This document shows positions 5,433 to 34,669 of a stretch of DNA of 64,000 nt, in pieces. The notes under the pieces are model-generated. The model did not search any database. It was not told the DNA's origin and saw only the letters and a list, made by a program, of their open reading frames with translations. Numbering within the stretch: position 1 is the stretch's first letter; every line of letters starts with the position of its first letter. The stretch lies in NCBI RefSeq assembly GCF_037042905.1, contig NC_087251.1:14448001-14512000 (forward strand). The letters are read 5' to 3'. This DNA is from Lytechinus pictus (lineage: Eukaryota). The position numbers were made by a program, and so were the translations under genes.

Positions 5433-5700
5433 TGATTTAGTGGTTCCGACTCTTGCCTTTGAAACAGAGGGTCGTGGGTTCGAATCGTAATCATGGCGTG
5501 TTTCCTTCAGCAAGAAATTTATCCACACTGTGCTGCACTCGACCCAGGTGAGGTGAATGGATACCCGGTAGGAGTAATTCCTTGCATGCACTGAGCGCCG
5601 GTGATGGTAGCTGGAGCTAAAGCCATGCAGGGTAATAAAAGCAGCGCTTTGTATCCTCTGGCAAAAAGCGCTTTATAATCCAGCTATTATAAATCCAGGC
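5433..5700 (+). mobile_element. tRNA-derived SINE
   Basis: tRNA-like head (tagtggtt...gtcgtgggttcgaatc, B-box), core gctgcactcgacccaggtg, tail agcgcttt...aagcgctttataa then A/T-rich repeats. Confidence 0.75.
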
Positions 5701-10596: not shown

Positions 10597-10954
10597 TATT
10601 TTCTGATTTTCCAATTAAGCGTTTGGTTCTTCCTTCAATTCCCGTTTCTTATTGCCTATTTCTCCCATTTTTCCCGTCATTCTTGCCCGTGCCAATAAGT
10701 CATATCTTTTGATTTTATCTCCCTCTCTTGCTAATCATGCTAGTATACTTGTCATTAGTATTTCCGTTTCTTTTTCCATTTCCCTTTCCTCTTTTTCTTT
10801 CTTTCTTTCCCTTCCCCTTTCTCCCTTTTCTCTTTTCCCACTCTTTTTTACTTTTCCCGGTGAAATCCGCCCGTAACGCCACTTCCAATAAATTACCCCA
10901 AACTGAAGCAGTTATAATGCCGAACAAGTAAGTTTGCATAATCAATACTCAATG

Positions 10955-11087
10955 CAGTGGCGTACCTAGGATTTTCCACAGGGGGGGCAAAACTGTCCGC
11001 CAAAAAATTAGACAAGCAAAAAAAAAAAAAAAAAAAAAAAGGTCTTCGATCACAAATAAAGGATTTCGAACCAGAAAAAAATTGACA

Positions 11088-11132
<45 letters not shown>

Positions 11133-11275
11133 TCAAGCTCGTCAGGGGGGCAAAAAAGGTTTTTCAAGCCCGTCAGGGGGGGGGGGGGCAAAGATACGTT
11201 TTTGCATGGGTTGTGACTCATCAGGGGGGGGCAGTGTGCCCCCCTGCCCCCCCCCCCCCCGTAGGTACGCTTGTG
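10955..11275. mobile_element. GC/homopolymer-rich MITE, hAT-like
   Basis: Imperfect TIR cagtggcgtaccta / taggtacgcttgtg; exact 8-bp TSD actcaatg (10947-10954, 11276-11283). Confidence 0.85.
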
Positions 11276-11921
11276 ACTCAATGTATTTGTATGTCTTAGA
11301 AAAAATGATATTTTGTTCAATGTAGAAAAGGGAAATTGTTTTTGCTTCATTTGATAGAAAGTCAAGGTCAATTTAGCCTAAAGGTGCTTACGTGTCAATG
11401 AAAGTAAATCGTGCACACGATGCAGAGTATAGTAGCGTAAAGACGTAGAGGGCGTGAGAGATGTGAACGTGAACAGATGTGAACCGTATTTCGGTGAATT
11501 ATATTAGTTTATTACAGATTCTGAGAATGAAGTTTACATTACATAAAGGAGTCTTATAACCTATTAGGAGAAATTGACCTTTGAATGAGTACTTAAAACA
11601 TTTTTTTGCATTAATTAATAAACCTTGATGGTGGTGATGTAGCTGGTATTTTATTTAAATTGTGCCAAAGCATGAGGGTGATTTTAGTTGTAGCTTATCA
11701 GCTCTCATAGGATTTGATAAAGACAAAACCATTTAGGACTATTGAGAATGGATGTTAATAATTTTGAAAGCAAATGATATAAGGCGATAATTTACATAGA
11801 ATAAGCCCTATTTTACTGCTCACAGACTCATGAATAATCATAAGTCATCAAAGGTAATGAATTATTTTGAAGGACGTTTACATTTAATATTTAGATAAAA
11901 GGAACTATTTCTGCATGTTAA

Positions 11922-12917
11922 GGTGACAGGTGCCCTATTACCGTGCGGAAACGACTACGGGTATATAATCAAGCATAGGATTCTTACTAAGTACCTGTAC
12001 CCCAACAAACTATATATTTTTGGAAAGCTTATGAGCTGATCTACACAAAAATTTGCACTGTGGCATATTAGCTTTAGGCATAAGCAAAATATGGTCATTC
12101 AAAGTCATGACTTTAAAAATCAAGATTTTTCTCTATATGAACTTTCTATGGTTATAACTTCACAACATAGAGTGTAATTTAAGTTTTGATGGATTAATTT
12201 AATTCTCTGACTTCTTTGTGATGAATTTATGATGGATTTAAGAAATATTCAGAGTAGAATTGTAAAAATTATGGATTAAACAAGCAGTCAGATAATGAGA
12301 AATTCAGAATGGACTTTTATACACAACTCCACCTGTGGGGGTACCATGCACAAAAACTATCATTATTTTGTTGTACTCTTCAAGATACACAATTCTACAA
12401 AATTTCATGCAAATCCAATGATTAGAACTCAAGTTATTACATTTTTCATTTAAAAAACCCTCAATTTTGTATAATATCACGATAAAGAAAGGGCTATAAT
12501 ACTAATAATAACGGAAATTTGTAACGTGCCATGTCTGTCACATAGTGTATGTAACTTGAAGTCGCTGCCATATTGTGCAATACAGTAGCTCTCCCTATTT
12601 GGCCAACAGAGGGTGGTAGTCCACTTTGCTACATGGAATATCTGGGGCTTCAGCCAAAAAAAATCTGGGGAATTTCTGATTTTTTTTAAAGGCAGTATCA
12701 AAGGTTTTGGGGACAGATTTAATCACTTCCGGTGTGTAAAATACTACTTCCGGTTTGAGAATTTTATGAAAATATGTTTTAACCCCCCTCTTATTAAAAA
12801 AAGAGGTAGAATATTGAGATAAAACAAGTTGCATGATGAAGTACACACATGAAACTAGCAAAGGAGACAAAAAAATTGAAATCATTAAAAAAAAAAATTT
12901 TTAGGGCACCTGTCACC
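11922..12917. mobile_element. TTAA-flanked non-autonomous DNA transposon (Kolobok-like GG...CC termini)
   Basis: ttaa|ggtgacaggtgcccta ... tagggcacctgtcacc|ttaa, perfect 16-bp TIR. Confidence 0.85.
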
Positions 12918-13239
12918 TTAAGAGTACACAAATAATTAGTCAATGAAGACTTGATTTCAGTATGAACAAATTTATTTCTAAAGGATAATATAGGAAGGAG
13001 TTATGATAAGGTGTTACATATAAACATAATTCAGTTTACTACATAAAATAGCTGTCATAAAGAGCAAGGCATGGATGTTGAACAATAATTAGATTTAGTT
13101 AATGAAATCGTACATAAATTGAGTCAAATGTTTTTGACAAAATAAGTATATTTTGCAGCATACTTATGATGTTTTCATTTCCTTTTTCGATTATGCAGAT
13201 TGAATAAGATGTATCTATACAGTTATTGGTACTTCTAAA

Positions 13240-13655
13240 GGCGACCGCACACCTTACGACTGGTCTGCGACCCGATTTTGGAACAAATCGCTTTTGCTCA
13301 TTTTCTGAAGATGTGAATGGAACATATCATTTTATTTGAGGTTAAAATTAATTGAAATATTAATATTATAGCCATTTTGAAAGATTACAAGCCCTTACTT
13401 TGGAGTAAAGTCCAAATTAGTTTCAAATAGTAGCCAATCGTACGACTGCTATGACGTCATTACGACTAGATATTAAATTCGCTTTTATTCTAAGAAGGAT
13501 GATAGTATACTAGTCACAAATTTGATCATAGGTATTGGTAAGATGATTTAGAACATTACAGAGTAAGATATTCCAAGTCTCAGTATTAGCATCAAATTCC
13601 ACTACATTTTATTTTAAAATCGGGTCGCAGACCAGTCGTAAGGTGTGCGGTCGCC
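13240..13655. mobile_element. MITE with 40-bp perfect TIR, TAAA flanks
   Basis: taaa|ggcgaccgcacaccttacgactggtctgcgacccgatttt ... aaaatcgggtcgcagaccagtcgtaaggtgtgcggtcgcc|taaa; decayed relatives at ~54421-54822 and ~59370-60158. Confidence 0.9.
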
Positions 13656-14834
13656 TAAACTTCCAGGCTTGAAAATTTCCTTTCTGTGGTGATCCAGTAA
13701 CAAATACTCTACAAATTTGCAGTTTTTATAAAATATATGTACAGACAAAAGAGCAGGAAAAGAAACAAATCTACTAGCAAAATGATGATCTGTTAAGAAC
13801 CAAACCGCAAAACAAAATAGTAAGTATACAGCAACTGAATTCTCCATGTAAGTCCTAAATACAAAATACAAAAGCACTATATCTATGGTGAAAAAAAATA
13901 TATATATGACATAAAACGCTTACAATAAGAAAAAAAATACCAGAGTTGTTAAAAAACAATATTAATATGGCAAGTCATTACTGTATTATATTGCTGTTTG
14001 GGGCGGGGGTGGGACGCAAACCCAAATCCTTGACCACTAAACCCAGGACCCAATCCTGTTACATTCAGAAAACTGAAATTGATGATTGCACAAACATGAA
14101 TATCCATAACATTATGGATTTATACAGGTAAAATATCAGTTACAGACTCAATTTTTCATGTCTTTCTTTCACCAAAATTACCACAAGAATATATATTGGA
14201 TATACAAGTTTTATCAATGAAACTGTAAGAGATATTCTAATTAGAAACGGTTGACTTGAGAACTTGGGTGCAATGTTCACTTCCAAACATTGTCACCAAC
14301 AGGAGATACATACCAGTGATGCCCTGGAATAGATTCTTTTTAATTTACAATAAGAAGTCCTGTAAATTGCATGAAAACCATATACAACATGAATCATTAC
14401 ATGTGACAGGACCCTTGCATAAAATTTGAAACGTTTGTTTTGCAGAGGGTTTATTCTTGTACTAGTATACTTTTGGGCATTAATCAATAATAAAGGGGAG
14501 CTAAAAAAGAAAGAGAAAAAATATTTCCAAGAAACAGGTGCAAAAATAGCTTCTATGAATCAAAGTAATTGTAAAGCAAACCAAGTGGTCTTTATACTTT
14601 TAAAATTCTTCAAAATAATAAAGAAGGAAAAAATTATGGCATAATATGTATATGGTGTAAAAAACTTTTTCATAAAACTGTAAAAAAAATATGAAAGACA
14701 AAAGCCATATTATATCTATGGTTTCAATGGCATACCCTGCACAACCTGTTTAACTCCTACAATAAGAAAGACCAAAAATGTGGATGACAAAGATGACATA
14801 CCCAAGGTGTAAGACAATATTACCCAAAATTCTT

Positions 14835-15435
14835 TTTACCTTGGGGGCAGAGTGGATCTCTGCTTATTTCCATAAAAATGTTTTGAAGAACACGCAAAAT
14901 AAGGCAAAGTATAAAGCAAATCAATACTCCATAAAACTCCTACAATACAAAAGACATAAGCTTGACGCTAAGGTAAATATATATCACCTAAAATGCTTTA
15001 CCTTGGATCTCTGCTTAATCAAAAAAAAAAAGGTTTGAAGAACAAGCAAAATAAAGCAAAGTATAAAGCAAATCAATACTACATAAAACTACAATACAAA
15101 AGATTTACGGTAAGGTAAATATATATGACATGAAATGCTTTACCTTGCATGCAGAGTGGATTTCTGCTTATGTCCATAAAATGTTTTTAAGAACAAGCAA
15201 AATAAAGCAAAGTAAAAAGCAAATCATTACTACATAAAACTCCTACAATACAAAAGACATAAGCTTGACGCTAAGGTAAATATATATCACCTAAAATGCT
15301 TTACCTTGGATCTCTGCTTATTTCCAAAAAAAAAGGTTTGAAGAACAAGCAAAATAAAGCAAAGTACAAAGCAAATCAATACTACATAAAACTACAATAC
15401 AAAAGATTTACGGTAAGGTAAATATATATGACATA
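14835..15435. repeat. Tandem repeat, 4 x ~151 bp arranged as a ~302-bp dimer x2
   Basis: gcaaaataa(g/a)gcaaagta..aagcaaatca recurs near 14895, 15046, 15196 and 15349; copies 1/3 and 2/4 share diagnostic segments. Confidence 0.9.
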
Positions 15436-15851
15436 AAAAAAGTGTTAAGCGATATAAAAGCAAGTATGATGGTATTTCTCAGGTCTACACACCTAATGAT
15501 ATTGTACTAATATTCAACTAGAATATTTTTTTACATTTCACAAAATCTTTCAGTAAATAATGTTCATTATATCCTTATAGTATCTCATTAAAATTTGTAA
15601 TATAAGATTTTCTTGGTAACAAACCTCGGGCAGTCATTTTCAGATTAAAAAAAATAGTACCCATGTCTGCTCATCCATTTATCTGCACATGATTCAGGGA
15701 TTTTGATAAGTAAGGCAGGATTTTCAGGCTATCATATGAAATGCCCAATATTCATTAATTTGCCACAATTTTCAGTCAATTTCTTAATAAATATCTGTCC
15801 TCCTGTCTTTGAAGCATGCATACAGCTCTTGCAATTATCAAGTGCACATAC

Positions 15852-15993
15852 CCAGGGAAGAATGATATCCTTCATTATACAGCCTTGTCACAGTTTCAAG
15901 TGAATTAATCCACTGGAAATTGTCATTGGTGCCGTTCAGCTCCTCAAGTTGTAGACGAAGTTTTGACTTCCATGATGCATGGCTACGTTCAGC
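15852..15993 (-). CDS. Integrase next exon (carries the catalytic E)
   Basis: ttgttttcattttacag| then AERSHASWKSKLRLQLEELNGTNDNFQWINSLETVTRLYNEGYHSSLG |gtatgt; completes QGKAER and the W...YN...HSSLG integrase motif. Confidence 0.88.
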
Positions 15994-16690
15994 CTGTAAA
16001 ATGAAAACAAGAATTATTACAATTCATTTTGTTGCAATAATAGGAAGAAATGTGAAACATTGTTGCCTGATTTCTGACAGGTGGTTTTTAAAACCAAATT
16101 TTGGTGTCAAAAGTTGCACAAGACTTGACAGTAAAAAATCATCAAGTAACACGGTAAAACATTTTGCACAGCAGATTTATCACGTCAATTGAAATATAAT
16201 TGTAAATATACAAGGTTGGTTAGGAAAATAAATGGATTGAATTGAAAATAAAGTATGAAAATATTTGCTTGAGAATACATGTACTCTTTCACCCCATACA
16301 CGTAAATACGTCATGATATGACATATACATGTACCTGTATTGTCCCTAAAAGCTTTGAAAGGTGTAATCTCTTTCTGGCTCATGTATCAATATTGCTTGT
16401 GTGCATTCTATTCTTTTTTTTAAACACATGATGAAATATCTTCTTTCATGCAATTCTAATTCTCCTCATATCAAAACTAATAGTTTAGAAACTAAAATGT
16501 TTTTGTTTCTATTTTACACCTGTTTCCTTTAGTAGAATTACAAGAAATTTGTGATTTTTAAGTATATCATAAAGTTAAACATCATGAAGGCAAGAATCCA
16601 ATTATTATCAAATTTTCTAAATAAACATGGATTGCTGGTGCCCTGACATACCAAACAAAAAACAGAACTTTAATTATAGGATATTCTTAC

Positions 16691-17458
16691 TTTTCCTTGT
16701 GATTCTGGTTTGTAAGGTGCACTGAGGATTATTCGCACACCAAGTCGACTCATGAGCAGTCGAACAGCACCCTTAAATTCCGTCCCTCTGTCTGCTTGTA
16801 AGATTTTGGGGGGTCCAAATACATCATATACATTTCCAAGAACACCAGCTACCTCTTCTGAAGTCTTCGATTTAAGTGCCTTCAGGAACAAGTACCTGCT
16901 AAAGACATCAATCACACTCAAAATATAATTGTAATCACCCTCTCCACCTACGCTCCTCATGTCCACCAAGTCCACTTGATTCCTTTCCATTACGCTGCAC
17001 GCCCCTACAGGAATTAGTGGTGCACAGTTTTGGAATTGGGGCTTGTTCTTCTGGACCGATGGTTTCTTGTTCAACCACTTTTGGATCCCGCTCTTATGTA
17101 GACCAACAAACACCTTTTGAATTCTCTTTGTCAGTTTGAGTGCGCCATCTCCTATAGTTTCACGATAGAAGCTTTCCAATATCTCATCAATTTCATTTGT
17201 CCTGATGATGATTCTGTATGCATCATTAGTGGGAAAAACCAGTCGATCTTCCAAGTTTCTTGTAACTGGGTTGTAAATCTTCTGTATCCGTACACCTGGC
17301 CATTTTCGCAGAAATCTACTCACTCTGTGCCATTTCTGGTTTTCTTCCTTAGCAGTCTTCGTCGCCCCGTGATGTCCACTACTCAATGCATCAAACACCA
17401 GCTTGTAGGTCTCTGGATCCATCGCTGATGGGCGCCTTGACCTTTTGATGATTTTGAC
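16691..17458 (-). CDS. Integrase/transposase (rve core, Ginger/TDD/KRBA2-SCAND3 type), main exon
   Basis: ORF 16670-17422 contains ERNQVDLVDM, YILSVIDVFSRYLFL, FGPPKILQADRGTEF and SAPYKPESQGK. Polypyrimidine+AG acceptor at 17460-17459 with 12 in-frame codons before MDPETY; GTAAGA donor at 16690 in phase 0. Confidence 0.9.
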
Positions 17459-17949
17459 CTTTAATTACAAGGAAAAAAAGAAATGTAAAACATAGCGTAT
17501 GTTGGAAACGAACTACTGTAAAACTGGGTGACATTGAACCTATTCTTATAATTATTCCTTACGAGATGTACCAGATGGTTTGATACAAATTCATGTTCAT
17601 TATAATTTGGAATTGACTCTTTCATGGTACATGTTTGTAGGGGCAAGTTGCTGGAAACTGCTGTTGGGAATTTTTTTTGAGGTTCAAAATCACCTTTGGA
17701 CCGGAGTCAGATTATGATCAGCTTTTTTAAAGGCTGTTATTTAAAAATCCTATTCCCAAAAGTCTTTCTTTGTGTTTTTTTAATAATATAAAAAATATAT
17801 GGCAACAAACAAATTGACATTATATGCTGGTATCGTGTCTTCCAAGGTTATTAGTACATTTCACCACTTACATGTAACCTTGCTGGCAATGTTGGCTGTC
17901 CCCTCCCTGTTCAAGACCACGCCATGTTACGTTTATATATCAACTGCCA

Positions 17950-20900
17950 ACTAATACTTAAATCTTTGTGAAACACCCCCTGAAGAAACCCGTCTTTGTA
18001 GTCTAACCTGGCTTTAATAGGCTTTCAAGTGTGATACCCGTGCTTATGATGTAACCTGTCCTTATAGCTTAACCTCCTTTAAAGAGTTAGCTGCTTAAAA
18101 GAATAATCTTGCTTTCAGGTGTAAACTGGCTTTTAAAATGAATGCTGATCTTATCTGGGAGAGCTAGCAGTAAAAAAAGACATCACTTAACTGGTTGGAT
18201 CATGCCGAGAGGACGCGCACTACTGCGTACGTGATGTACGACTAATATTAAAATCTTTGTGAAACACCCCCTGAAGAAACCCGTCTTTGTAGTCTAACCT
18301 GGCTTTAATACGCTTTCAAGTGTGATACCCGTGCTTATGATGTAACCTGTCCTTATAGCTTAACCTCCTGTAAAGAGTTTAGCTGCTTAAAAGAATAATC
18401 TTGCTTTCAGGTGTAAACTGGCTTTTAAAATGAATGCTGATCTTATCTGGGAGAGCTAGCAGTAAAAAAAGACATCACTGAACTGGTTGGATCATGCCGA
18501 GAGGACGCGCACTACTGCATACGTGATGTACGACTAATATTAAAATCTTTGTGAAACACCCCCTGAAGAAACCCGTCTTTGTAGTCTAACCTGGCTTTAA
18601 TAGGCTTTCACGTGTGATACATGTGCTTATGATGTAACCTGTCCTTATAGCTTAACCTCCTTTAAAGAGTTAGCTGCGTAAAAGAATAATCTTGCTTTCA
18701 AGTGTAAACTGGCTTTTAAAATGTATGCTGATGTTATCTGGGAGAGCAAGCAGTAAAAAAAGACATCACTGAACTGGTTGGATCATGCCGAGAGGACGCG
18801 CACTACTGCATACGTGATGTACGACTAATATTAAAATCTTTGTGAAACACCCCCTGAAGAAACCCGTCTTTGTAGTCTAACCTGGCTTTAATAGGCTTTC
18901 ACGTGTGATACATGTGCTTATGATGTAACCTGTCCTTATAGCTTAACCTCCTTTGAAGAGTTAGCTGCGTAAAAGAATAATCTTGCTTTCAAGTGTAAAC
19001 TGGCTTTTAAAATGTATGCTGATGTTATCTGGGAGAGCAAGCAGTAAAAAAAGACATCACTGAACTGGTTGGATCATGCCAAGAGGACGCGCACTACTGC
19101 GTACGTGATGTACGACTAATACTTAAATCTTTGTGAAACACCCCCTGAAGAAACCCGTCTTTGTAGTCTAACCTGGCTTTAATAGGCTTTCAAGTGTGAT
19201 ACATGTGCTTATGATGTAACCTGTCCTTATAGCTTAACCTCCTTTAAAGAGTTAGCTGCTTAAAAGAATAATATTGCTTTCAGGTGTAAACTGGCTTTTA
19301 AAATGAATGCTGATCTTATCTGGGAGAGCGAGCAGTAAAAAAAGACATCACTGAACTGGTTGGATCATGCCGAGAGGACGCGCACTACTGCGTACGTGAT
19401 GTACGACTAATATTAAAATCTTTGTGAAACACCCCCTGAAGAAACCCGTCTTTGTAGTCTAACCTGGCTTTAATAGGCTTTCACGTGTGATACATGTGCT
19501 TATGATGTAACCTGTCCTTATAGCTTAACCTCCTTTAAAGAGTTAGCTGCGTAAAAGAATAATCTTGCTTTCAAGTGTAAACTGGCTTTTAAAATGTATG
19601 CTGATGTTATCTGGGAGAGCAAGCAGTAAAAAAAGACATCACTGAACTGGTTGGATCATGCCGAGAGGACGCGCACTACTGCATACGTGATGTACGACTA
19701 ATATTAAAATCTTTGTGAAACACCCCCTGAAGAAACCCGTCTTTGTAGTCTAACCTGGCTTTAATAGGCTTTCACGTGTGATACATGTGCTTATGATGTA
19801 ACCTGTCCTTATAGCTTAACCTCCTTTGAAGAGTTAGCTGCGTAAAAGAATAATCTTGCTTTCAAGTGTAAACTGGCTTTTAAAATGTATGCTGATGTTA
19901 TCTGGGAGAGCAAGCAGTAAAAAAAGACATCACTGAACTGGTTGGATCATGCCAAGAGGACGCGCACTACTGCGTACGTGATGTACGACTAATACTTAAA
20001 TCTTTGTGAAACACCCCCTGAAGAAACCCGTCTTTGTAGTCTAACCTGGCTTTAATAGGCTTTCAAGTGTGATACATGTGCTTATGATGTAACCTGTCCT
20101 TATAGCTTAACCTCCTTTAAAGAGTTAGCTGCTTAAAAGAATAATATTGCTTTCAGGTGTAAACTGGCTTTTAAAATGAATGCTGATCTTATCTGGGAGA
20201 GCGAGCAGTAAAAAAAGACATCACTGAACTGGTTGGATCATGCCGAGAGGACGCGCACTACTGCGTACGTGATGTACGACTAATATTAAAATCTTTGTGA
20301 AACACCCCCTGAAGAAACCCGTCTTTGTAGTCTAACCTGGCTTTAATAGGCTTTCAAGTGTGATACCCGTGCTTATGATGTAACCTGTCCTTATAGCTTA
20401 ACCTCCTTTAAAGAGTTAGCTGCTTAAAAGAATAATCTTGCTTTCAGGTGTAAACTGGCTTTTAAAATGAATGCTGATCTTATCTGGGAGAGCTAGCAGT
20501 AAAAAAAGACATCACTGAACTGGTTGGATCATGCCGAGAGGACGCGAACTGCTGCGTATGTGATGTACGACTAATATTAAAATCTTTGTGAAACACCCCC
20601 TGAAGAAACCCGTCTTTGTAGTCTAACCTGGCTTAAATAGGCTTTCAAGTGTGATACCCGTGCTTATGATGTAACCTGTCCTTATAGCTTAACCTCCTTT
20701 AAAGAGTTTAGCTGCTTAAAAGAATAATATTGCTTTCAGGTGTAAACTGGCTTTTAAAATGAATGCTGATCTTATCTGGGAGAGCTAGCAGTAAAAAAAG
20801 ACATCACTGAACTGGTTGGATCATGCCGAGAGGACGCGCACTACTGCGTACGTGATGTACGACTAATATTAAAATCTTTGTGAAACACCCCCTGAAGAAC

Positions 20901-23900
20901 CCCGTCTTTGTAGTCTAACCTGGCTTTAATAGGCTTTCAAGTGTGATACATGTGCTTATGATGTAACCTGTCCTTATAGCTTAACCTCCTTTAAAGAGTT
21001 AGCTGCTTAAAAGAATAATCTTGCTTTCAGGTGTAAACTGGCTTTTAAAATGAATGCTGATCTTATCTGGGAGAGCTAGCAGTAAAAAAGACATTACTGA
21101 ACTGGTTGGATCATGCCAAGAGGACGCGCACTACTGCGTACGTGATGTACAACTAATATTTAAATCTTTGTGAAACACCCCCTGAAGAAACCTGTCTTTG
21201 TAGTCTAACCTGGCTTTAATAGGCTTTCAAGTGTGATACCCGTGCTTATGATGTAACCTGTCCTTATAGCTTAACCTCCTTTAAAGAGTTTAGCTGCTTA
21301 AAAGAATAATCTTGCTTTCAGGTGTAAGCTGGCTTTGAAAATGAATGCTGATCTTATCTGGGAGAGCAAGCAGTAAAAAAAGACATCACTGAACTGGTTG
21401 GATCATGCCAAGAGGACGCGCACTACTGCGTACGTGATGTACGACTAATACTTAAATCTTTGTGAAACACCCCCTGAAGAAACCCGTCTTTGTAGTCTAA
21501 CCTGGCTTTAATAGGCTTTCAAGTGTGATACCCGTGCTTATGATGTAACCTGTCCTTATAGCTTAACCTCCTTTAAAGAGTTTAGCTGCTTAAAAGAATA
21601 ATCTTGCTTTCAGGTGTAAACTGGCTTTTAAAATGAATGCTGATCTTATCTGGGAGAGCTAGCATTAAAAAAGACATCACTGAACTGGTTGGATCATGCC
21701 GAGAGGACGCGAACTGCTGCGTACGTGATGTACGACTAATATTAAAATCTTTGTGAAACACCCCCTGAAGAAACCCGTCTTTGTAGTCTAACCTGGCTTT
21801 AATAGGCTTTCACGTGTGATACATGTGCTTATGATGTAACCTGTCCTTATAGCTTAACCTCCTTTAAAGAGTTGGCTGCTTAAAAGAATAATCTTGCTTT
21901 CAGGTGTAAACTGGCTTTTAAAATGTATGCTGATCTTATCTGGGAGAGCAAGCAGTAAAAAAAGACATCACTGAACTGGTTGGATCATGCCAAGAGGACG
22001 CGCACTACTGCGTACGTGATGTACGACTAATACTTAAATCTTTGTGAAACACCCCCTGAAGAAACCCGTCTTTGTAGTCTAACCTGGCTTTAATAGGCTT
22101 TCAAGTGTGATACCCGTGCTTATGATGTAACCTGTCCTTATAGCTTAACCTCCTTTAAAGAGTTAGCTGCTTAAAAGAATAATCTTGCTTTCAGGTGTAA
22201 ACTGGCTTTTAAAATGAATGCTGATCTTATCTGGGAGAGCTAGCAGTAAAAAAAGACATCACCGAACTGGTTGGATCATGCCGAGAGGACGCGCACTACT
22301 GCGTACGTAATGTACGACTAATATTAAAATCTTTGTGAAACACCCCCTGAAGAAACCCGTCTTTGTAGTCTAACCTGGCTTTAATAGGCTTTCAAGTGTG
22401 ATACCCGTGCTTATGATGTAACCTGTCCTTATATCTTAACCTCCTTTAAAGAGTTTAGCTGCTTAAAAGAATAATCTTGCTTTCAGGTGTAAACTGGCTT
22501 TTAAAATGAATGCTGATCTTATCTGGGAGAGCTAGCAGTAAAAAAAGACATCACTGAACTGGTTGGATCATGCCGAGAGGACGCGCACTACTGCATACGT
22601 GATGTACGACTAATATTAAAATCTTTGTGAAACACCCCCTGAAGAAACCCGTCTTTGTAGTCTAACCTGGCTTTAATAGGCTTTCACGTGTGATACATGT
22701 GCTTATGATGTAACCTGTCCTTATAGCTTAACCTCCTTTAAAGAGTTAGCTGCGTAAAAGAATAATCTTGCTTTCAAGTGTAAACTGGCTTTTAAAATGT
22801 ATGCTGATGTTATCTGGGAGAGCAAGCAGTAAAAAAAGACATCACTGATCTGGTTGGATCATGCCGAGAGGACGCGCACTACTGCATACGTGATGTACGA
22901 CTAATATTAAAATCTTTGTGAAACACCCCCTGAAGAAACCCGTCTTTGTAGTCTAACCTGGCTTTAATAGGCTTTCAAGTGTGATACATGTGCTTATGAT
23001 GTAACCTGTCCTTATAGCTTAACCTCCTTTAAAGAGTTAGCTGCTTAAAAGAATAATATTGCTTTCAGGTGTAAACTGGCTTTTAAAATGAATGCTGATC
23101 TTATCTGGGAGAGCGAGCAGTAAAAAAAGACATCACTGAACTGGTTGGATCATGCCGAGAGGACGCGCACTACTGCGTACGTGATGTACGACTAATATTA
23201 AAATCTTTGTGAAACACCCCCTGAAGAAACCCGTCTTTGTAGTCTAACCTGGCTTTAATAGGCTTTCAAGTGTGATACCCGTGCTTATGATGTAACCTGT
23301 CCTTATAGCTTAACCTCCTTTAAAGAGTTAGCTGCTTAAAAGAATAATCTTGCTTTCAGGTGTAAACTGGCTTTTAAAATGAATGCTGATCTTATCTGGG
23401 AGAGCTAGCAGTAAAAAAAGACATCACTGAACTGGTTGGATCATGCCGAGAGGACGCGAACTGCTGCGTACGTGATGTACGACTAATATTAAAATCTTTG
23501 TGAAACACCCCCTGAAGAAACCCGTCTTTGTAGTCTAACCTGGCTTTAATAGGCTTTCAAGTGTGATACCCGTGCTTATGATGTAACCTGTCCTTATAGC
23601 TTAACCTCCTTTAAAGAGTTTAGCTGCTTAAAAGAATAATATTGCTTTCAGGTGTAAACTGGCTTTTAAAATGAATGCTGATCTTATCTGGGAGAGCTAG
23701 CAGTAAAAAAAGACATCACTGAACTGGTTGGATCATGCCGAGAGGACGCGCACTACTGCGTACGTGATGTACGACTAATATTAAAATCTTTGTGAAACAC
23801 CCCCTGAAGAACCCCGTCTTTGTAGTCTAACCTGGCTTTAATAGGCTTTCAAGTGTGATACATGTGCTTATGATGTAACCTGTCCTTATAGCTTAACCTC

Positions 23901-26900
23901 CTTTAAAGAGTTAGCTGCTTAAAAGAATAATCTTGCTTTCAGGTGTAAACTGGCTTTTAAAATGAATGCTGATCTTATCTGGGAGAGCTAACAGTAAAAA
24001 AGACATTACTGAACTGGTTGGATCATGCCAAGAGGACGCGCACTACTGCGTACGTGATGTACAACTAATATTTAAATCTTTGTTAAACACCCCCTGAAGA
24101 AACCCGTCTTTGTAGTCTAACCTGGCTTTAATAGGCTTTCACGTTGATACCTGTGCTTATGATGTAACCTGTCCTTATAGCTTACCTCCTTTAAAGAGTT
24201 AGCTGCTTAAAAGAATTATCTTGCTTTCAGGTGTAAACTGGCCTTTAAAATGAATACTGATCTTATCTGGGAGAGCTAGCAGTAAAAAAGACATCACTGA
24301 ACTGGTTGGATCATGCCGAGAGGACGCGCACTACTGTGACGTGATGTACGACTAATACTTAAATCTTTGTGAAACACCCCCTGAAGAAACCCGTCTTTGT
24401 AGTCTAACCTGGCTTTAATAGGCTTTCAAGTGTGATACATGTGCTTATGATGTAACCTGTCCTTATAGCTTAACCTCCTTTAAAGAGTTTAGCTGCTTAA
24501 AAGAATAATCTTGCTTTCAGGTGTAAACTGGCTTTTAAAATGAATGCTGATCTTATCTGGGAGAGCTAGCAGTAAAAAAGACATCACTGAACTGGTTGGA
24601 TCATGCCAAGAGGACGCGCACTACTGCGTATGTGATGTACAACTAATATTTAAATCTTTGTTAAACACCCCCTGAAGAAACCCGTCTTTGTAGTCTAACC
24701 TGGCTTTAATAGGCTTTCACGTGTGATACATGTGCTTATGATGTAACCTGTCCTTATATCTTAACCTTCTTTAAAGAGTTTAGCTGCTTAAAAGAATAAT
24801 CTTGCTTTCAAGTGTAAACTGGCTTTTAAAATGTATGCTGATCTTATCTGGGAGAGCAAGCAGTAAAAAAAGACATCACTGAACTGGTTGGATCATGCCA
24901 AGAGGACGCGCACTACTGCGTACGTGATGTACGACTAATACTTAAATCTTTGTGAAACACCCCCTGAAGAAACCCGTCTTTGTAGTCTAACCTGGCTTTA
25001 ATAGGCTTTCAAGTGTGATACCCGTGCTTATGATGTAACCTGTCCTTATAGCTTAACCTCCTTTAAAGAGTTAGCTGCTTAAAAGAATAATCTTGCTTTC
25101 AGGTGTAAACTGGCTTTTAAAATGAATGCTGATCTTATCTGGGAGAGCTAGCAGTAAAAAAAGACATCACTAAACTGGTTGGATCATGCCGAGAGGACGC
25201 GCACTACTGCGTACGTGATGTACGACTAATATTAAAATCTTTGTGAAACACCCCCTGAAGAAACCCGTCTTTGTAGTCTAACCTGGCTTTAATAGGCTTT
25301 CAAGTGTGATACCCGTGCTTATGATGTAACCTGTCCTTATATCTTAACCTCCTTTAAAGAGTTTAGCTGCTTAAAAGAATAATCTTGCTTTCAGGTGTAA
25401 ACTGGCTTTTAAAATGAATGCTGATCTTATCTGGGAGAGCTAGCAGTAAAAAAAGACATCACTGAACTGGTTGGATCATGCCGAGAGGACGCGCACTACT
25501 GCATACGTGATGTACGACTAATATTAAAATCTTTGTGAAACACCCCCTGAAGAAACCCGTCTTTGTAGTCTAACCTGGCTTTAATAGGCTTTCACGTGTG
25601 ATACATGTGCTTATGATGTAACCTGTCCTTATAGCTTAACCTCCTTTAAAGAGTTAGCTGCGTAAAAGAATAATCTTGCTTTCAAGTGTAAACTGGCTTT
25701 TAAAATGTATGCTGATGTTATCTGGGAGAGCAAGCAGTAAAAAAAGACATCACTGATCTGGTTGGATCATGCCGAGAGGACGCGCACTACTGCATACGTG
25801 ATGTACGACTAATATTAAAATCTTTGTGAAACACCCCCTGAAGAAACCCGTCTTTGTAGTCTAACCTGGCTTTAATAGGCTTTCACGTGTGATACATGTG
25901 CTTATGATGTAACCTGTCCTTATAGCTTAACCTCCTTTGAAGAGTTAGCTGCGTAAAAGAATAATCTTGCTTTCAAGTGTAAACTGGCTTTTAAAATGTA
26001 TGCTGATGTTATCTGGGAGAGCAAGCAGTAAAAAAAGACATCACTGAACTGGTTGGATCATGCCAAGAGGACGCGCACTACTGCGTACGTGATGTACGAC
26101 TAATACTTAAATCTTTGTGAAACACCCCCTGAAGAAACCCGTCTTTGTAGTCTAACCTGGCTTTAATAGGCTTTCAAGTGTGATACCCGTGCTTATGATG
26201 TAACCTGTCCTTATAGCTTAACCTCCTTTAAAGAGTTTAGCTGCTTAAAAGAATAATCTTGCTTTCAGGTGTAAACTGGCTTTTAAAATGAATGCTGATC
26301 TTATCTGGGAGAGCGAGCAGTAAAAAAAGACATCACTGAACTGGTTGGATCATGCCGAGAGGACGCGCACTACTGCGTACGTGATGTACGACTAATATTA
26401 AAATCTTTGTGAAACACCCCCTGAAGAAACCCGTCTTTGTAGTCTAACCTGGCTTTAATAGGCTTTCAAGTGTGATACCCGTGCTTATGATGTAACCTGT
26501 CCTTATAGCTTAACCTCCTTTAAAGAGTTAGCTGCTTAAAAGAATAATCTTGCTTTCAGGTGTAAACTGGCTTTTAAAATGAATGCTGATCTTATCTGGG
26601 AGAGCTAGCAGTAAAAAAAGACATCACTGAACTGGTTGGATCATGCCGAGAGGACGCGAACTGCTGCGTACGTGATGTACGACTAATATTAAAATCTTTG
26701 TGAAACACCCCCTGAAGAAACCCGTCTTTGTAGTCTAACCTGGCTTTAATAGGCTTTCAAGTGTGATACATGTGCTTATGATGTAACCTGTCCTTATAGC
26801 TTAACCTCCTTTAAAGAGTTAGCTGCTTAAAAGAATAATATTGCTTTCAGGTGTAAACTGGCTTTTAAAATGAATGCTGATCTTATCTGGGAGAGCGAGC

Positions 26901-29535
26901 AGTAAAAAAAGACATCACTGAACTGGTTGGATCATGCCGAGAGGACGCGCACTACTGCGTACGTGATGTACGACTAATATTAAAATCTTTGTGAAACACC
27001 CCCTGAAGAAACCCGTCTTTGTAGTCTAACCTGGCTTTAATAGGCTTTCAAGTGTGATACCCGTGCTTATGATGTAACCTGTCCTTATAGCTTAACCTCC
27101 TTTAAAGAGTTAGCTGCTTAAAAGAATAATCTTGCTTTCAGGTGTAAACTGGCTTTTAAAATGAATGCTGATCTTATCTGGGAGAGCTAGCAGTAAAAAA
27201 AGACATCACTGAACTGGTTGGATCATGCCGAGAGGACGCGAACTGCTGCGTACGTGATGTACGACTAATATTAAAATCTTTGTGAAACACCCCCTGAAGA
27301 AACCCGTCTTTGTAGTCTAACCTGGCTTTAATAGGCTTTCAAGTGTGATACCCGTGCTTATGATGTAACCTGTCCTTATAGCTTAACCTCCTTTAAAGAG
27401 TTTAGCTGCTTAAAAGAATAATATTGCTTTCAGGTGTAAACTGGCTTTTAAAATGAATGCTGATCTTATCTGGGAGAGCTAGCAGTAAAAAAAGACATCA
27501 CTGAACTGGTTGGATCATGCCGAGAGGACGCGCACTACTGCGTACGTGATGTACGACTAATATTAAAATCTTTGTGAAACACCCCCTGAAGAACCCCGTC
27601 TTTGTAGTCTAACCTGGCTTTAATAGGCTTTCAAGTGTGATACATGTGCTTATGATGTAACCTGTCCTTATAGCTTAACCTCCTTTAAAGAGTTAGCTGC
27701 TTAAAAGAATAATCTTGCTTTCAGGTGTAAACTGGCTTTTAAAATGAATGCTGATCTTATCTGGGAGAGCTAACAGTAAAAAAGACATTACTGAACTGGT
27801 TGGATCATGCCAAGAGGACGCGCACTACTGCGTACGTGATGTACAACTAATATTTAAATCTTTGTTAAACACCCCCTGAAGAAACCCGTCTTTGTAGTCT
27901 AACCTGGCTTTAATAGGCTTTCACGTTGATACCTGTGCTTATGATGTAACCTGTCCTTATAGCTTACCTCCTTTAAAGAGTTAGCTGCTTAAAAGAATTA
28001 TCTTGCTTTCAGGTGTAAACTGGCCTTTAAAATGAATACTGATCTTATCTGGGAGAGCTAGCAGTAAAAAAGACATCACTGAACTGGTTGGATCATGCCG
28101 AGAGGACGCGCACTACTGTGACGTGATGTACGACTAATACTTAAATCTTTGTGAAACACCCCCTGAAGAAACCCGTCTTTGTAGTCTAACCTGGCTTTAA
28201 TAGGCTTTCAAGTGTGATACATGTGCTTATGATGTAACCTGTCCTTATAGCTTAACCTCCTTTAAAGAGTTTAGCTGCTTAAAAGAATAATCTTGCTTTC
28301 AGGTGTAAACTGGCTTTTAAAATGAATGCTGATCTTATCTGGGAGAGCTAGCAGTAAAAAAGACATCACTGAACTGGTTGGATCATGCCAAGAGGACGCG
28401 CACTACTGCGTATGTGATGTACAACTAATATTTAAATCTTTGTTAAACACCCCCTGAAGAAACCCGTCTTTGTAGTCTAACCTGGCTTTAATAGGCTTTC
28501 ACGTGTGATACATGTGCTTATGATGTAACCTGTCCTTATATCTTAACCTTCTTTAAAGAGTTTAGCTGCTTAAAAGAATAATCTTGCTTTCAGGTGTAAA
28601 CTGGCTTTTAAAATGAATGCTGATCTTATCTGGGAGAGCTAGCAGTAAAAAAGACATCACTGAACTGGTTGGATCATGCCAAGAGGACGCGCACTACTGC
28701 GTACGTGATGTACAACTAATATTTAAATCTTTGTGAAACATCCCCTGAAGAAACCCGTCTTTGTAGTCTAACCTGGCTTTAATAGGCTTTCACGTTGATA
28801 CCTGTGCTTATGATGTAACCTGTCCTTATAGCTTAACCTCCTTTAAAGAGTTAGCTGCTTAAAAGAATTATCTTGCTTTCAGGTGTAAACTGGCCTTTAA
28901 AATGAATACTGATCTTATCTGGGAAAGCTAGCAGTAAAAAAGACATCACTGAACTGGTTGGATCATGCCGAGAGGACGCGCACTACTGTGACGTGATGTA
29001 CGACTAATACTTAAATCTTTGTGAAACACCCCCTGAAGAAACCCGTCTTTGTAGTCTAACCTGGCTTTAATAGGCTTTCACGTGTGATACATGTGCTTAT
29101 GATGTAACCTGTCCTTATAGCTTAACCTCCTTTAAAGAGTTTAGCTGCTTAAAAGAATAATCTTGCTTTCAGGTGTAAACTGGCTTTTAAAATGAATGCT
29201 GATCTTATCTGGGAGAGCTAGCAGTAAAAAAGACATCACTGAACTGGTTTGATCATGCCGAGAGGACGCGCACTACTGCGTACGTGATGTACGACTAATA
29301 CTTAAATCTTTGTGAAACATCCCCTGAAGAAACCTGTCCTTGTAGTCTAACCTGGCTTTAATTGGCTTTCAAGCTCATGGTGTAACCTGTCCTTATAGCT
29401 TAACCTGCTTAAACAGTAAGCTACATAAAAAAGGAACCTTGCTTTCAAGTGTAACCTAGCTTTTAAAATCGTATCCTAGCTTTTAAAATCGTAACCTAGC
29501 TTTTAAAAGCGTATCCTGATCTTATCTGGGCCTAG
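17950..29535. repeat. Satellite array, ~40 copies of a 290-292-bp unit
   Basis: aatctttgtgaaacaccccctgaagaaacccgtc at 17961, 18252, 18544 and onward; copies differ by only a few bases; last copy decays into a 20-bp sub-repeat (gta(a/t)cctagcttttaaaa) at ~29450-29515. Confidence 0.98.
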
Positions 29536-29564
29536 TAAAAATTGAATCATGCATTGCAACTCAC

Positions 29565-29688
29565 CATTACTCCAAATTAAAAGAGGGATTTCTTGTTCAA
29601 TGCTGCTAAAAAGCAGAGTGCTTGGACTTCTGCCTCCTTCCAGTCTGTCCTTCTTTCTTTATCTCTGCTCACAATCTGTATGATATAC
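29565..29688 (-). CDS. Candidate upstream exon of the integrase gene (5' UTR plus start ATG)
   Basis: Minus strand ...tactacag|...tttggagtaATG|gtgagt; the ATG joins in phase 0 to the acceptor at 17458; in-frame TAA just upstream. Confidence 0.55.
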
Positions 29689-30791: not shown

Positions 30792-33133
30792 CTAGTCTAG
30801 TCTTAAACTGGTAAAGGGAAAGGAGGCCGAGATCCGGTGATCAGATAAATGCCTGTAAAAACACAAAAACAAAATGTATCGGTGGTTCTAAAACACATAA
30901 CATACAAATAACAAATAAAAAACAAGACAAAAGAAACTAAGAATAAAAATATCAAGTAATAAAGGTGGAGTGACTCTGGTAGTCTCCCCTGCATCCACGA
31001 TTCAATATAGCACCAGAGCTGACTTTAAAAAAACAACTATAAATTCACTATTCACAAAAACACAATGTTCTTATCTTAATATACTACTACATTTATTAAC
31101 CCTTAATGACATTTGACCTTGATCTAGGAACCTACATGTACATGTTAGACTTGTGCAAGATGAGCAATGATACTAGATTACCCATATGTCCACATTGCAT
31201 TAACAATATCCATTAACTTTATGATGGCAATGAGCTATGATGGTAATTCAATAATTGCCCACAACATGGCCAAAATTTGACACTAAGTGACCTTTCACCT
31301 TATTAATGTGACCTGCAGAGCAGGTTCAGTGATAAATACCTGATTACTCTTATGACCAAGTTTCATGAACTACATCCTTTATCCATAGAGCTATCTCTGT
31401 AAGAGCTCCATGCTTTAACTATCAAAGTTATTATGGTAAATCAACAAAGAAATTGACCAATGTTCATTGACCATAGACCTTAGTCATGTGATCTGTATAT
31501 TGCACAGGATGTTCAGTGATACTTCTTTACTCTTATGTCAATTTTCATGCACCAGTTCCATAAACTTTCAAAGTTGTGGTGGAAAAAACAACTACCCCCA
31601 ACATGATTCAAGGTTCATTGACCTTGGTCATGAGACGTTAAACCATGCCTTTCTAATTGCTCTCTGCTGTACAGGCAAGATAGAAAGAAAAAATCAACAA
31701 GCCTCATAAAAGAAAGATTGGCATGTTGTCAATGATCACGGCAGTATTTTTGATTGAGAGTCACTTGCATTATCTGAGTTTAATTATTTCATAGTATATG
31801 AATTTAAATAATTATTCAAATTCATACACTATGAAATATATTAAACTCAAATACATAAAGAAAATGAAGCTCACAGATAATGTTCAAGAAGCCTGGCATG
31901 AATGGTCCTGTGAGTTTCAGGGCTGGAGCATCTCATCATTACTTTAGATGTTATAGATGAAAAACTTGAATAAAATAAGTTAATTTGGAACTTACCAACT
32001 TTAAGTCTCTACACTAGTCGCATAAAGTGAGGTGAGGTTGTGATTCTGCATTCTTGGAAGTACCTGAAAAAATTGAGTGTAGCAACCAAAACATAAAATA
32101 AGACAAAATATAATAAAACAATAACAACACACTTTTTTAAATAGTGCTTAATTCATCACAACGACATGTCTAAGCGCTTTACAGATATATTATTACCCAG
32201 GTCATCGAATTCAATTGGTAATTCCCGCACACAATGTGTGAACATCCTCCACTCCCATTGAGCAATTCAATGTAGCAGCAGTGCTAAACTTAGAAACTAC
32301 TAGAAAATAATTATTCACAAAAAAAAAACACTACCAGGTACATTCATTTGCCCGAAAAGATATTAGACCATGATCATGTGTAAGACCTAAGTCTTATCAG
32401 AGTTATTGGACCTTGGACCTGAGACCATGGCAAGAGAATCAGGTATACTTTTGTATGTGGAATAATATTAACAAACATAATTTCTTAATTTGAATATCAA
32501 TGTAATGAATTTGATTTACTATTGTTGTGTCAATTCTTAGCCAACACATAGAATAACATCTGTCGCCAGACATTGCAAAACAGTGCATAGATCTGACAGC
32601 TTCAAGTTTGTAATGTATACACACAATGCTTTTCTTTATAATAAACCAAGCAAACTTATTGTGAGCTTAATTAGTACAGTCCATCAGACCCTTGAAATAT
32701 ATATGGCGCAAGAGTGATTCTGTCTGTAGGGGCAAAAGGTTAATGCCTCAATACGCACAACTGCATGCGTACAGTAATAAATTCACCAGACTAAAACCAT
32801 AGATGGAATGACCAAGAATTACAGGCCACTGCCTTCTTCCTATACTAGATAATGATGATGATGAAGATGAACAGGAGCAAAAATAACACTTTTTTCAAAA
32901 TATGCAAATTCTGTGCTTTAATGACTCCATAACAAATCTTGCTATATCCCATGCTTGGATTAGACTTGATAATTTGTATATTGGAAGATTTGATAGGTTT
33001 TCAGGGGGATCTTACTTTAGATGTTATATATCAAAGAAAATAATTAATAAAATAAGTTATTATAGAACTTACCAATTTCAAGTCTCTACACTAGTCGCAT
33101 AAAGGGATGTTGTGATTGCAATCTTGCAAGTTC
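30792..33133 (-). other. Three candidate non-coding mini-exons (30792-30852, 31996-32063, 33073-33133)
   Basis: Each is bounded by a pyrimidine-rich ...cag acceptor and a gtaa donor on the minus strand; the last two share aagtctctacactagtcgcataaag. Confidence 0.55.
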
Positions 33134-33696
33134 CTGAAAATAAATGTGTGTGTGGACAACAAAACATAAAAATAAAATTTAAAAAAGGCGAGCGCATCTG
33201 GCAGTCTCACCTGCATTGCGCAATTCAATATAGCAGCAGTGCTGACTTTGAAAACTACTATAAATAGTTATTCACAAAAAACACCATTCAAATGATTCAA
33301 TACTACATTCATTGACAATAAATGACATTTTACCTTGATCATGTGACCTAAGACTTGTCAGTGATACTTGATTACCCCGATTTCTACGTATTATAAAGTA
33401 TATCTATTACCTTGGAAAGTTATGACAGCAATCTAACAATTACCTCCAACATGGCCCTCGCACATGCCATGTTTTGAAAAAACAGTGAATAATTAATCAA
33501 GTGTGAGGAACTCCATGTCGGCTGTAAATCACCAATTTTGAGGCTGATAGAAGCATGGAAAACAAGTGAAACTTTGTGTAAAGTAAGAATATTAAATTTG
33601 ATTGTTTTTAAAGATCATGATGTTGCATGAATTTTTTATTTTTCACCATAAAATTCCATCTTTGTCAATTGGAGTATCAGAACGAGTTCACGTTCG

Positions 33697-34084
33697 GGTA
33701 ACCCAGGGAGCTCCGGCCCACGAAGCGTGCCGCAACCCAGGAGTCCACCGTGCATTTAGACATAGACACAGGACAAGGGTAGATTGTGGTCATAATAACT
33801 TAGTAGAAAATTGTGTAAACAGAAATTATGCACTTACCACGATTATATGGATGAAGGTCTATCATGTGGCAGTATCCTGACATCGAGGCACAGACTGGAA
33901 CCTCGAAAAAAAAGAAAAGTTCTGTCCTTCTGCCCCAGTCTCGATCGGCCATTTTGTAATGAATTTTGAAAAAATTAGGAGGGGTATCGCAACAGAACTT
34001 TTCGCTTTTTTGAGGTTCCAGTCTACCCTAGTCCCATGTCTAAGTCTGGCTCAGGCCCGCTTCGCAGCCGGAGCTCCCTGGGTA
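33697..34084. repeat. Nested imperfect inverted repeat
   Basis: acccagggagctccggc (~33701) vs gccggagctccctgggt (~34067-34083); agactggaacctc.aaaaa...aaaagttctgt (~33892) vs acagaacttttt...tttttgaggttccagtct (~33992-34024). Confidence 0.8.
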
Positions 34085-34513: not shown

Positions 34514-34669
34514 ATAATAGAACCAGAAGTGAATCAACTTGACAGTCAGCATGCATGTATTAAACAATGTTGAGGATAGAACTTGCAACCCAAACACCAT
34601 AACACAGTTAATCAATGGGCATGGCACAAGTGCAGTTTCGCACCGGTCGATTACCACTACCAGTACTAC

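What the first reader, a model, noticed from the sequence alone, without database searches (positions are those of the whole stretch)
15852..17458. Integrase catalytic triad is split by an intron and is intact after splicing
The ORF track shows a protein ending ESQGKVRISYN without the catalytic E. Splicing 16691 to 15993 (GT-AG, phase 0, 697 nt) yields QVD...QADRG...QGKAERSH, a D..D(34)E triad with no stops or frameshifts. Introns argue for a DNA transposon or domesticated gene, not an LTR retrotransposon fragment. The exon ends HSSLG|gt, so a further exon is expected but I could not identify it.
Basis: partly seen in the sequence, partly recalled or inferred. Interest (0 to 1): 0.72.

Follow-up and report, generated by a model that had tools for sequence, protein, structure and literature searches.

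The report
Spliced, truncated Ginger2 transposase gene
A jumping-gene enzyme gene of the Ginger2 type is spliced, in two public sequencing data sets, so that its three catalytic residues come together, but the message stops before the rear half of the enzyme and no inverted ends flank it, so it is likely a stranded remnant that can no longer jump and only possibly a gene the host has adopted.

Summary
The 697-nt GT-AG intron (16690-15994, minus strand, phase 0) is skipped in contigs of two runs from two studies, and splicing gives D164-D224-x34-E259. Two points change the picture. (1) The gene starts 12.1 kb upstream: one contig joins an exon at 29565-29594 to 17458, across an intron holding a 40-copy 291-bp satellite; the ATG is that exon's last codon. 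(2) The expected third exon is not supported: both contigs read through HSSLG to a stop at 15840, and no downstream exon is found in the window. The 308-aa product lacks the last core helix, the SH3-like domain and the OTU protease of full-length relatives. The core matches Repbase's bivalve-type Ginger2 transposases; some relatives are TGT...ACA inverted-repeat DNA transposons, and 21 of 27 relatives that break off at this site show a splice-donor signature, so the intron is an inherited family trait. Introns in Ginger transposases are known. No inverted repeats flank this copy, no orthologue was found, and the closest relatives look like decaying copies. Verdict: a transcribed, immobilised, truncated Ginger2 copy; host domestication is possible (about 0.25) but untested.

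The parts
29565..29688 (-). Upstream exon U1 (124 nt); its last three bases (29567-29565) are the ATG, preceded by an in-frame TAA five codons up
17459..29564 (-). Intron 1, 12,106 nt, GT...AG with a pyrimidine tract
17950..29469 (.). Satellite array inside intron 1: 291-bp unit, 39.7 copies, mean pairwise identity 96.9% (93.0-100%) over 39 monomers
16691..17458 (-). Coding exon: N-terminal extension-like domain, zinc-less helix bundle and catalytic core up to SQGK (D164, D224)
   Evidence: Pfam rve E 2e-12; model pLDDT 90.7; fold matches; covered at full depth by X1 and X5 contigs
15994..16690 (-). Intron 2, 697 nt, GT-AG, phase 0, one codon before the catalytic E; same site as in many relatives
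15838..15993 (-). Last coding stretch: catalytic E259 and two core helices, ending HSSLGMCT, stop TGA at 15840-15838
15450..15837 (-). 3' untranslated read-through; contigs run about 45 letters further, into the downstream tandem array; true 3' end unknown
14835..15438 (.). Tandem array (period 152/303) that the transcript enters
30792..33901 (-). Four predicted short non-coding leader exons (30792-30852, 31996-32063, 33073-33133, 33838-33901); two are duplicates of each other

Best explanation
This is a copy of a Ginger2-type DNA transposase gene whose spliced message encodes a 308-residue protein with all three catalytic residues but without the rear half of the enzyme, and it is likely an immobilised remnant that can no longer transpose. 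Shown: a leader exon supplies the ATG and is spliced over a 12.1-kb satellite-filled intron to the main exon; the 697-nt intron is removed, bringing E259 to D164 and D224; the message then reads on to a stop four codons after HSSLG. Inferred: the ancestor was a cut-and-paste element with TGT...ACA terminal inverted repeats and a 700-900-residue transposase (N-terminal domains, DD34E core, SH3-like domain, long helix, OTU protease) that already had this intron; the 3' part, with the right end, was lost. Predicted: the product keeps its N-terminal DNA-contacting domains and active-site residues but lacks the last core helix and the C-terminal domain, so it would not build a working transpososome. 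Most likely it persists because it is young enough to be intact and lies under a working promoter, not because the host needs it.
For: Splice joint and read-through in X1 and X5. Homology ends at residue 256 of the 793-aa P0001 and at the same point in four other relatives; in the P0001 model what follows is helix 258-263, a beta-barrel at 342-404, helix 407-476 and the OTU fold at 479-621; P258 is at least 90% conserved in 50 relatives. A profile of the C-terminal part of 57 relatives finds only 15990-15841 in the whole window (next best iE 4). OTU in 33 of 34 long relatives scanned. No inverted repeat pairs 5000-15850 with 17460-40000 at E<0.05. Six of 50 related loci of 2.5 kb or more have flanking inverted repeats, three with both TGT...ACA ends visible. 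Closest relatives (52-70% identity) come as near-identical variants, several frameshifted or interrupted (P0020/P0022/P0073; P0024/P0075-77; P0023; P0085), as transposon copies do. No named orthologue.
Against: The frame is open over 308 codons with three intact splice sites and a good start context; in a crude simulation an unselected frame stays open 34% of the time at 1% divergence, 12% at 2% and 0.25% at 5%, and the intronic satellite's monomers already differ by about 3%, which hints, weakly, at some age and so at selection. The X1 and X5 contigs match the window without a coding difference. No other copy at 90% identity or more lay on the exons in those runs, as for a single-copy gene. 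Two raw RNA runs of the same species label had no read on the coding exons (0 of 8.7 and 8.3 million records read), so expression is not general; X1 and X5 are not on record as RNA. A third coding exon more than 15.8 kb away cannot be excluded.
Confidence: 0.62

Rival explanations
1. A lineage-specific domesticated gene: the host keeps the truncated transposase under selection, most plausibly as a DNA-binding protein or as a dominant-negative damper of its own transposon family (by analogy with truncated repressor forms of other transposases; analogy recalled, not from a call).
For: Open 308-codon frame with intact triad and splice sites; a multi-exon leader 12 kb away; no terminal repeats; single expressed sequence with no coding difference in two studies; ORF-survival figures and satellite divergence. 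Ginger transposases have been domesticated before: GIN1, GIN2 (PMC2836005), SCAND3, KRBA2 (PMC3575427).
Against: The protein stops just before a conserved core motif, at what looks like an accidental end. No orthologue among named proteins. Closest relatives look like decaying transposon copies. P0074 and P0081 show an acceptor-like stretch at about the same place upstream, so the leader intron may be the element's own rather than a host capture. No dN/dS could be computed.
Confidence: 0.25
2. A complete, possibly active large Ginger2 element whose remaining exons and right end lie beyond the window, the read-through form being an incompletely spliced isoform.
For: G|GTATGT after HSSLG fits a donor consensus (sequence); intron 1 is already 12 kb, so a long further intron is conceivable; the triad is intact.
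Against: Both contigs pass the site unbroken at full depth and no joint or added depth is seen there (22 loose ends and 46 pieces were not displayed). No downstream exon in 15.8 kb. G-M at this position is also native coding sequence in relatives (LNMSP, IRMTP, IKMSP), so it need not be a donor. Related complete elements are about 4.3-5.7 kb.
Confidence: 0.09
3. A fragment of an LTR retrotransposon, a Polinton/Maverick or an endogenous large DNA virus that carries a Ginger2-like integrase.
For: Pfam rve and fold matches to retroviral and Ty3 integrases; lack of HHCC is shared with Polinton integrases (PMC10045372); nimaviruses have taken up intron-bearing Ginger2-like integrases (PMC10871703); one weak hit in a 15.6-kb viral contig with terminal repeats (L081).
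Against: No Gag, RT, RNase H, polymerase or capsid frame near the gene (the RT frames at 42681 and 62243 are far away and on the other strand). The core motifs match Ginger2 entries rather than the Polinton, Ginger1 or retroviral rows seen in the same alignment (by eye). Relatives are stand-alone genes between terminal repeats.
Confidence: 0.03

Closest known systems
Repbase bivalve-type Ginger2 transposases (Ginger2-1/2/3_CGi, Ginger2-1/2_CySi, Ginger2-2_TeGr; core alignment Data S3 of PMC10045372, supplement passages and part 11 of 18 seen)
   Same: Same core motifs and the same 34-residue D-E spacing; 63 of 102 aligned core positions outside one loop are identical to Ginger2-1_CGi (counted by eye).
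   Different: This copy is truncated after the second-last core helix, has no terminal repeats, and has a 12-kb satellite-filled first intron. Only the cores of the Repbase entries were seen, so their introns and C-terminal domains could not be compared.
Ginger2/TDD as defined by Bao, Kapitonov and Jurka 2010 (PMC2836005, parts 1-3 of 5 read)
   Same: Integrase-like DDE transposase, no GPY/F or YPYY motif; relatives with TGTNR termini and repeats of about 110-300 bp.
   Different: Defined with an H2C2 zinc finger, which this protein and nearly all its relatives lack; the paper reports OTU only for Ginger1.
Ginger1 transposases with OTU or Ulp1 domains and 1-4 introns (PMC2836005)
   Same: Introns in the transposase gene; C-terminal OTU (33 of 34 long relatives) or Ulp1 (1 of 34).
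   Different: No YPYY, H2C2 or GPY/F; core motifs differ from the Ginger1 rows (by eye).
Domesticated Ginger genes GIN1, GIN2 (PMC2836005; PMC3424704 passages) and SCAND3, KRBA2 (PMC3575427 passages)
   Same: Spliced, expressed, repeat-less integrase gene that keeps introns of its parent transposon.
   Different: Those are conserved single-copy orthologues with whole or fused domains; here no orthologue or selection is shown and the protein is cut short.
Prototype foamy virus and Ty3 integrases (PDB 4bac, 5frm, 7q5b)
   Same: Model aligns over residues 14-256 to PFV 8-222 (Z 13.3, rmsd 8.1, 195 aligned) and Ty3 24-258 (Z 10.2, rmsd 6.5, 216 aligned): extension domain, helix bundle, core.
   Different: No zinc ligands; stand-alone spliced gene; C-terminal domain missing in this copy.

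Membership tests
Ginger2/TDD DNA transposons | Integrase-like DDE core that groups with Ginger2 | tested here: met
   rve hit; the family motifs searched in the PMC10045372 alignment fall in Ginger2 rows (DVFSR, SQGKVER, SQGKCER passages shown); 63 of 102 positions identical to Ginger2-1_CGi by eye. No tree with the Repbase rows was built.
Ginger2/TDD DNA transposons | H2C2 zinc finger upstream of the core | tested here: not met
   No CxxC upstream of D164 in the window protein; HHCC or CxxC in 4 of 129 relatives; no H2C2 Pfam hit in 34 of 34 long relatives. The helix bundle itself is kept.
Ginger2/TDD DNA transposons | Absence of GPY/F and YPYY motifs | tested here: met
   None in the window protein; GP[YF] after the core in 0 of 35 full-length relatives.
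Ginger2/TDD DNA transposons | Terminal inverted repeats of about 50-180 bp with TGTNR ends | tested here: not met
   None around this copy within the window. Met in relatives L009, L012, L031, which belong to the wider, intronless part of the family.
Ginger2/TDD DNA transposons | 4-bp target duplication, AT-rich target | tested here: inconclusive
   No element ends in the window; flanks of L009, L012, L031 show no duplication, but these are short metagenome contigs that may mix copies.
Ginger1 DNA transposons | YPYY, H2C2 and GPY/F motifs | tested here: not met
Ginger1 DNA transposons | C-terminal OTU or Ulp1 protease domain | tested here: not met
   Absent from this copy; present in 34 of 34 long relatives (33 OTU, 1 Ulp1).
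IS3EU/GingerRoot | GingerRoot-type core, TA..TA ends, 6-bp duplication | tested here: not met
   The published query core (PMC6839031) looks unlike this one by eye; rva_4 not hit by the window exon; relatives end TGT...ACA.
Gypsy LTR retrotransposons / Polintons | Integrase within Pol next to RT and RNase H, or beside DNA polymerase B, ATPase and capsid genes | tested here: not met
Domesticated transposase gene | Spliced transcript with open frame | tested here: met
   (RNA nature of X1 and X5 inferred from the skipped introns)
Domesticated transposase gene | Single copy, orthologous position in several species, purifying selection | not testable with these tools
   No genome is held for this window and no DNA of the closest relatives could be fetched; protein searches gave no named orthologue.

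The most novel reading that the evidence does not exclude
A young domestication caught in the act: a zinc-less, OTU-type Ginger2 transposase lost its C-terminal half, came under a multi-exon leader 12 kb away across a satellite array, and is now kept by the host as a DNA-binding or transposon-damping protein with an intact but unemployed DD34E site. Its parent lineage (extension domain, zinc-less bundle, DD34E, SH3-like barrel, OTU, sometimes an F-box-like tail, with a conserved intron before the catalytic E) would be a distinct Ginger subgroup that the papers searched do not describe.
Probability: 0.25. Interest if true: 0.55.

Novelty: new member of a known kind. Interest (0 to 1): 0.3.

Why it matters
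As it stands it is a well-supported gene model for an expressed, truncated transposase copy and a reminder that an intron in an integrase gene marks Ginger ancestry, not domestication. If selection were shown, it would be a recent, independent Ginger2 domestication in an invertebrate (earlier AI notes call this genome a sea urchin), with a testable role as a damper of its own family. The parent lineage mixes features that the defining paper assigns to different groups (Ginger2-type core, OTU tail as in Ginger1, no zinc finger as in Polintons), which bears on how Ginger elements are classified.

Tried and rejected
Search for a third coding exon by tblastn of 19 relatives and by a C-terminal profile: nothing beyond 15841. 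Exon-2 protein search, longer proteins only: 7 candidates, none at E<=10, weak evidence. Raw RNA runs X9, X10: reads only on short repeat-derived stretches in intron 2 and the 3' region. Terminal repeats around the gene: none. GingerRoot considered and rejected. snoRNA-host idea for the short leader exons: no Rfam match at gathering score in the window, only sub-threshold hairpin matches at 29100-36500. The in-frame peptide of exon U1 upstream of its stop matches no Pfam family. The intron site could not be seen at DNA level in relatives: of 81 loci, 43 carry the motif and none shows an intron followed by an ERSH-type exon; L041 breaks there but is decayed. ESM Atlas gave only generic rve/H2C2 clusters. 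The N-terminal domain was not folded alone, so its fold search is untested beyond the PFV/Ty3 rows. The tree is the quick method, not the finished search. Paper searches for Ginger+OTU+intron, GINO/GINA/GINNY (30), Ginger+domesticated+echinoderm (34), Ginger2+OTU (35), Ginger2+intron (67), Ginger+sea urchin+domesticat (76) and integrase+OTU+F-box+transposase+Ginger (77, 0 papers) gave no description of this gene or of a zinc-less OTU-bearing Ginger2 group; Repbase Reports and Marin 2010 (seen only as a citation) are outside the library and may describe it.

Full report
Observation. On the minus strand an open frame at 17464-16670 matches Pfam rve (E 2e-12) and ends ESQGKVRISYN. Removing 16690..15994 (697 nt, GT...AG, phase 0) gives an open frame with 34 residues between the second D and the E. 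Relatives align on both sides of the cut. One lay of four runs on 15450-17940 showed the joint 'skips 697, CT..AC' in contigs of X1 (depth 74, study P1) and X5 (depth 32, study P2), with flat depth on both exons and at most about 6 in the intron apart from short repeat-derived matches. X1 and X5 are not on record as RNA; that they are RNA is inferred from the skipped introns. Two raw RNA runs with the same species label (X9, X10; about 6 in 100 of each read) had no read on the coding exons.

X1's contig carries 25 loose letters beyond 17463 that map to 29570-29594; with the one mismatch in the piece table this places a junction from 29565 to 17458, an intron of 12,106 nt with GT...AG ends. The last codon of that exon is an ATG in frame with the transposase, with an in-frame stop five codons before it, so the protein starts MVKIIK and the triad is D164, D224, E259 of 308 residues. 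The intron holds a 291-bp satellite in 39.7 copies. At the back, both contigs pass HSSLG unbroken, so the frame ends GMCT-stop at 15840 and the message runs on into a tandem array at 15438 (22 loose ends and 46 pieces were not displayed). A profile of the C-terminal parts of 57 relatives finds nothing else in the 64 kb. The supposed donor is ambiguous: it fits the consensus, but G-M is also native at this position in relatives.

Family. Three protein searches and a profile-free scan of 1.84 billion representatives (220 proteins held) gave a large family of stand-alone integrase-like proteins. I scanned 34 long members (570 aa or more, my choice from the 220) plus 5 others: 33 of 34 have OTU, 1 has Ulp1, 0 have an H2C2 hit, 4 have weak F-box-like tails. 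D-E spacing is 34 in 80 of 82; HHCC or CxxC occurs in 4 of 129; GPY/F in 0 of 35. In the published alignment of Repbase cores (PMC10045372, supplement passages and part 11 of 18) the family's motifs fall on Ginger2-1/2/3_CGi, Ginger2-1/2_CySi and Ginger2-2_TeGr; 63 of 102 aligned positions match Ginger2-1_CGi, counted by eye. Of 81 fetched loci, 50 are 2.5 kb or longer and 6 of these have flanking inverted repeats, three with both TGT...ACA ends visible; no target duplication could be read. The exon-1 model (pLDDT 90.7) matches retroviral and Ty3 integrases, PFV over residues 14-256. So the parent works like a Ginger2 cut-and-paste element. Strict membership is qualified: the H2C2 finger of the 2010 definition is absent, and this copy has no terminal repeats; Repbase nevertheless files the nearest cores as Ginger2.

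The intron is inherited. Of 220 proteins, 111 carry the junction motif: 81 continue with the catalytic E, 27 do not, 3 are ambiguous. Of the 27, 25 continue with V and 21 with VS, VR, VC or VG, the translation of common GT donors, against 19% for S/R/C/G after V in these proteins. These are gene calls that read into an intron at the same codon, and they include the five closest relatives with the motif. In a quick tree of 108 rows (four short E-less rows left out), 22 of 23 E-less rows lie in one 53-row group (SH-aLRT 99) that holds the window protein. This evidence is indirect: none of the 43 loci with the motif showed the intron at DNA level; they belong to intronless members. Introns in Ginger transposases are in print: 0-4 in Ginger1 (PMC2836005, parts 1-3 of 5), and Ginger2 is called intron-containing in PMC10871703 (passages).

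How it likely works. Shown: leader exon, two splices, read-through stop. Inferred from the model of the 793-aa relative P0001 and the alignment: the window protein ends at P0001 residue 256, before helix 258-263 with its conserved proline, the beta-barrel at 342-404, the long helix and the OTU fold. From general knowledge of retroviral-type integrases (recalled), the C-terminal barrel is needed for the integration complex. The product would therefore hold the active-site residues and N-terminal DNA-contacting domains but not transpose, and with no terminal repeats the copy cannot be moved. Best reading (0.62): an immobilised, truncated, still-transcribed copy under no particular selection. For it: the abrupt end; no named orthologue; closest relatives (52-70%) that come as near-identical, often frameshifted or interrupted variants; acceptor-like stretches at the same upstream place in P0074 and P0081, which suggest that the first intron is the element's own. 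Against it, and for domestication (0.25): an open 308-codon frame that a crude neutral simulation keeps open only 12% of the time at 2% divergence and 0.25% at 5%, satellite monomers 3% apart inside its intron (a weak clock, since the array may have grown from already diverged units), no coding difference in two studies and no second expressed copy at 90% identity. A full element with far-off exons (0.09) and an LTR, Polinton or viral origin (0.03) fit poorly.

Comparison and novelty. Domesticated Ginger genes are known (GIN1, GIN2: PMC2836005 and passages of PMC3424704; SCAND3, KRBA2: passages of PMC3575427); the tests that define them (single copy, orthology, selection) could not be run because no genome is held. 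GingerRoot (PMC6839031, parts 1-3 of 7 and the supplement list) is a different group. Seven paper searches found no account of this gene or of a zinc-less, OTU-bearing Ginger2 group, but Repbase Reports, Marin 2010 and the alignment files of PMC2836005 (only one supplement, tree labels, was searchable) were not seen and may cover it. Earlier scan notes had nothing on this locus; one calls the genome a sea urchin (unchecked) and two report similar intron-bearing or captured Ginger integrases elsewhere (unchecked). Verdict: real, correctly spotted, a new member of a known kind; interest 0.3, rising to about 0.55 if selection on the truncated protein is shown.

Noticed in passing
window 17950-29469: 291-bp satellite, 39.7 copies, fills 95% of intron 1; monomers 93-100% alike, many with an identical partner, the copy nearest the upstream exon the most diverged; no other copy in the window.
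   Followed up: partly
window 29565 (U1 donor): X1's contig begins exactly 30 bases before the U1 junction. With 31-base assembly words (recalled for Logan) this suggests a branch there: U1 also continues into the intron or another exon in that sample.
   Followed up: no
window 31935-32101 and 33009-33175; 30943-31124 and 33166-33340: Old direct duplications (81% and 76%) that include predicted leader exons.
   Followed up: partly
window 33697-36370: A 2.7-kb stretch bounded by 45-nt inverted repeats (80%), with nested inverted repeats inside and high CpG; the most upstream predicted leader exon lies in it, so another element may supply the promoter.
   Followed up: no
window 37562-38966: Foldback element with long arms (several segments 83-100% complementary).
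   Followed up: no
window 42681-44081 (+), 39622-40143 (-), 62243-62575 (+): LINE-type reverse transcriptase frame (RVT_1 E 9e-25, ALKBH8_N) and two shorter frames that look like LINE pieces but have no Pfam hit.
   Followed up: no
window 51617-56219 (+): Exons of a major-facilitator transporter gene (MFS_1 E 2e-25 for 55218-56216).
   Followed up: no
P0013, P0116, P0143, P0165: Weak F-box-like matches (below Pfam's cut-off) behind the OTU domain in 4 of 34 long relatives; P0095 has Ulp1 in place of OTU.
   Followed up: no
L009:471-4809, L011, L012:87-4541: Complete-looking intronless family members of about 4.3-4.7 kb whose terminal repeats are built of short internal tandem repeats.
   Followed up: partly
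L081:1-15597: Viral-collection contig with 123-bp terminal inverted repeats and a weak integrase match, possibly a Polinton.
   Followed up: no
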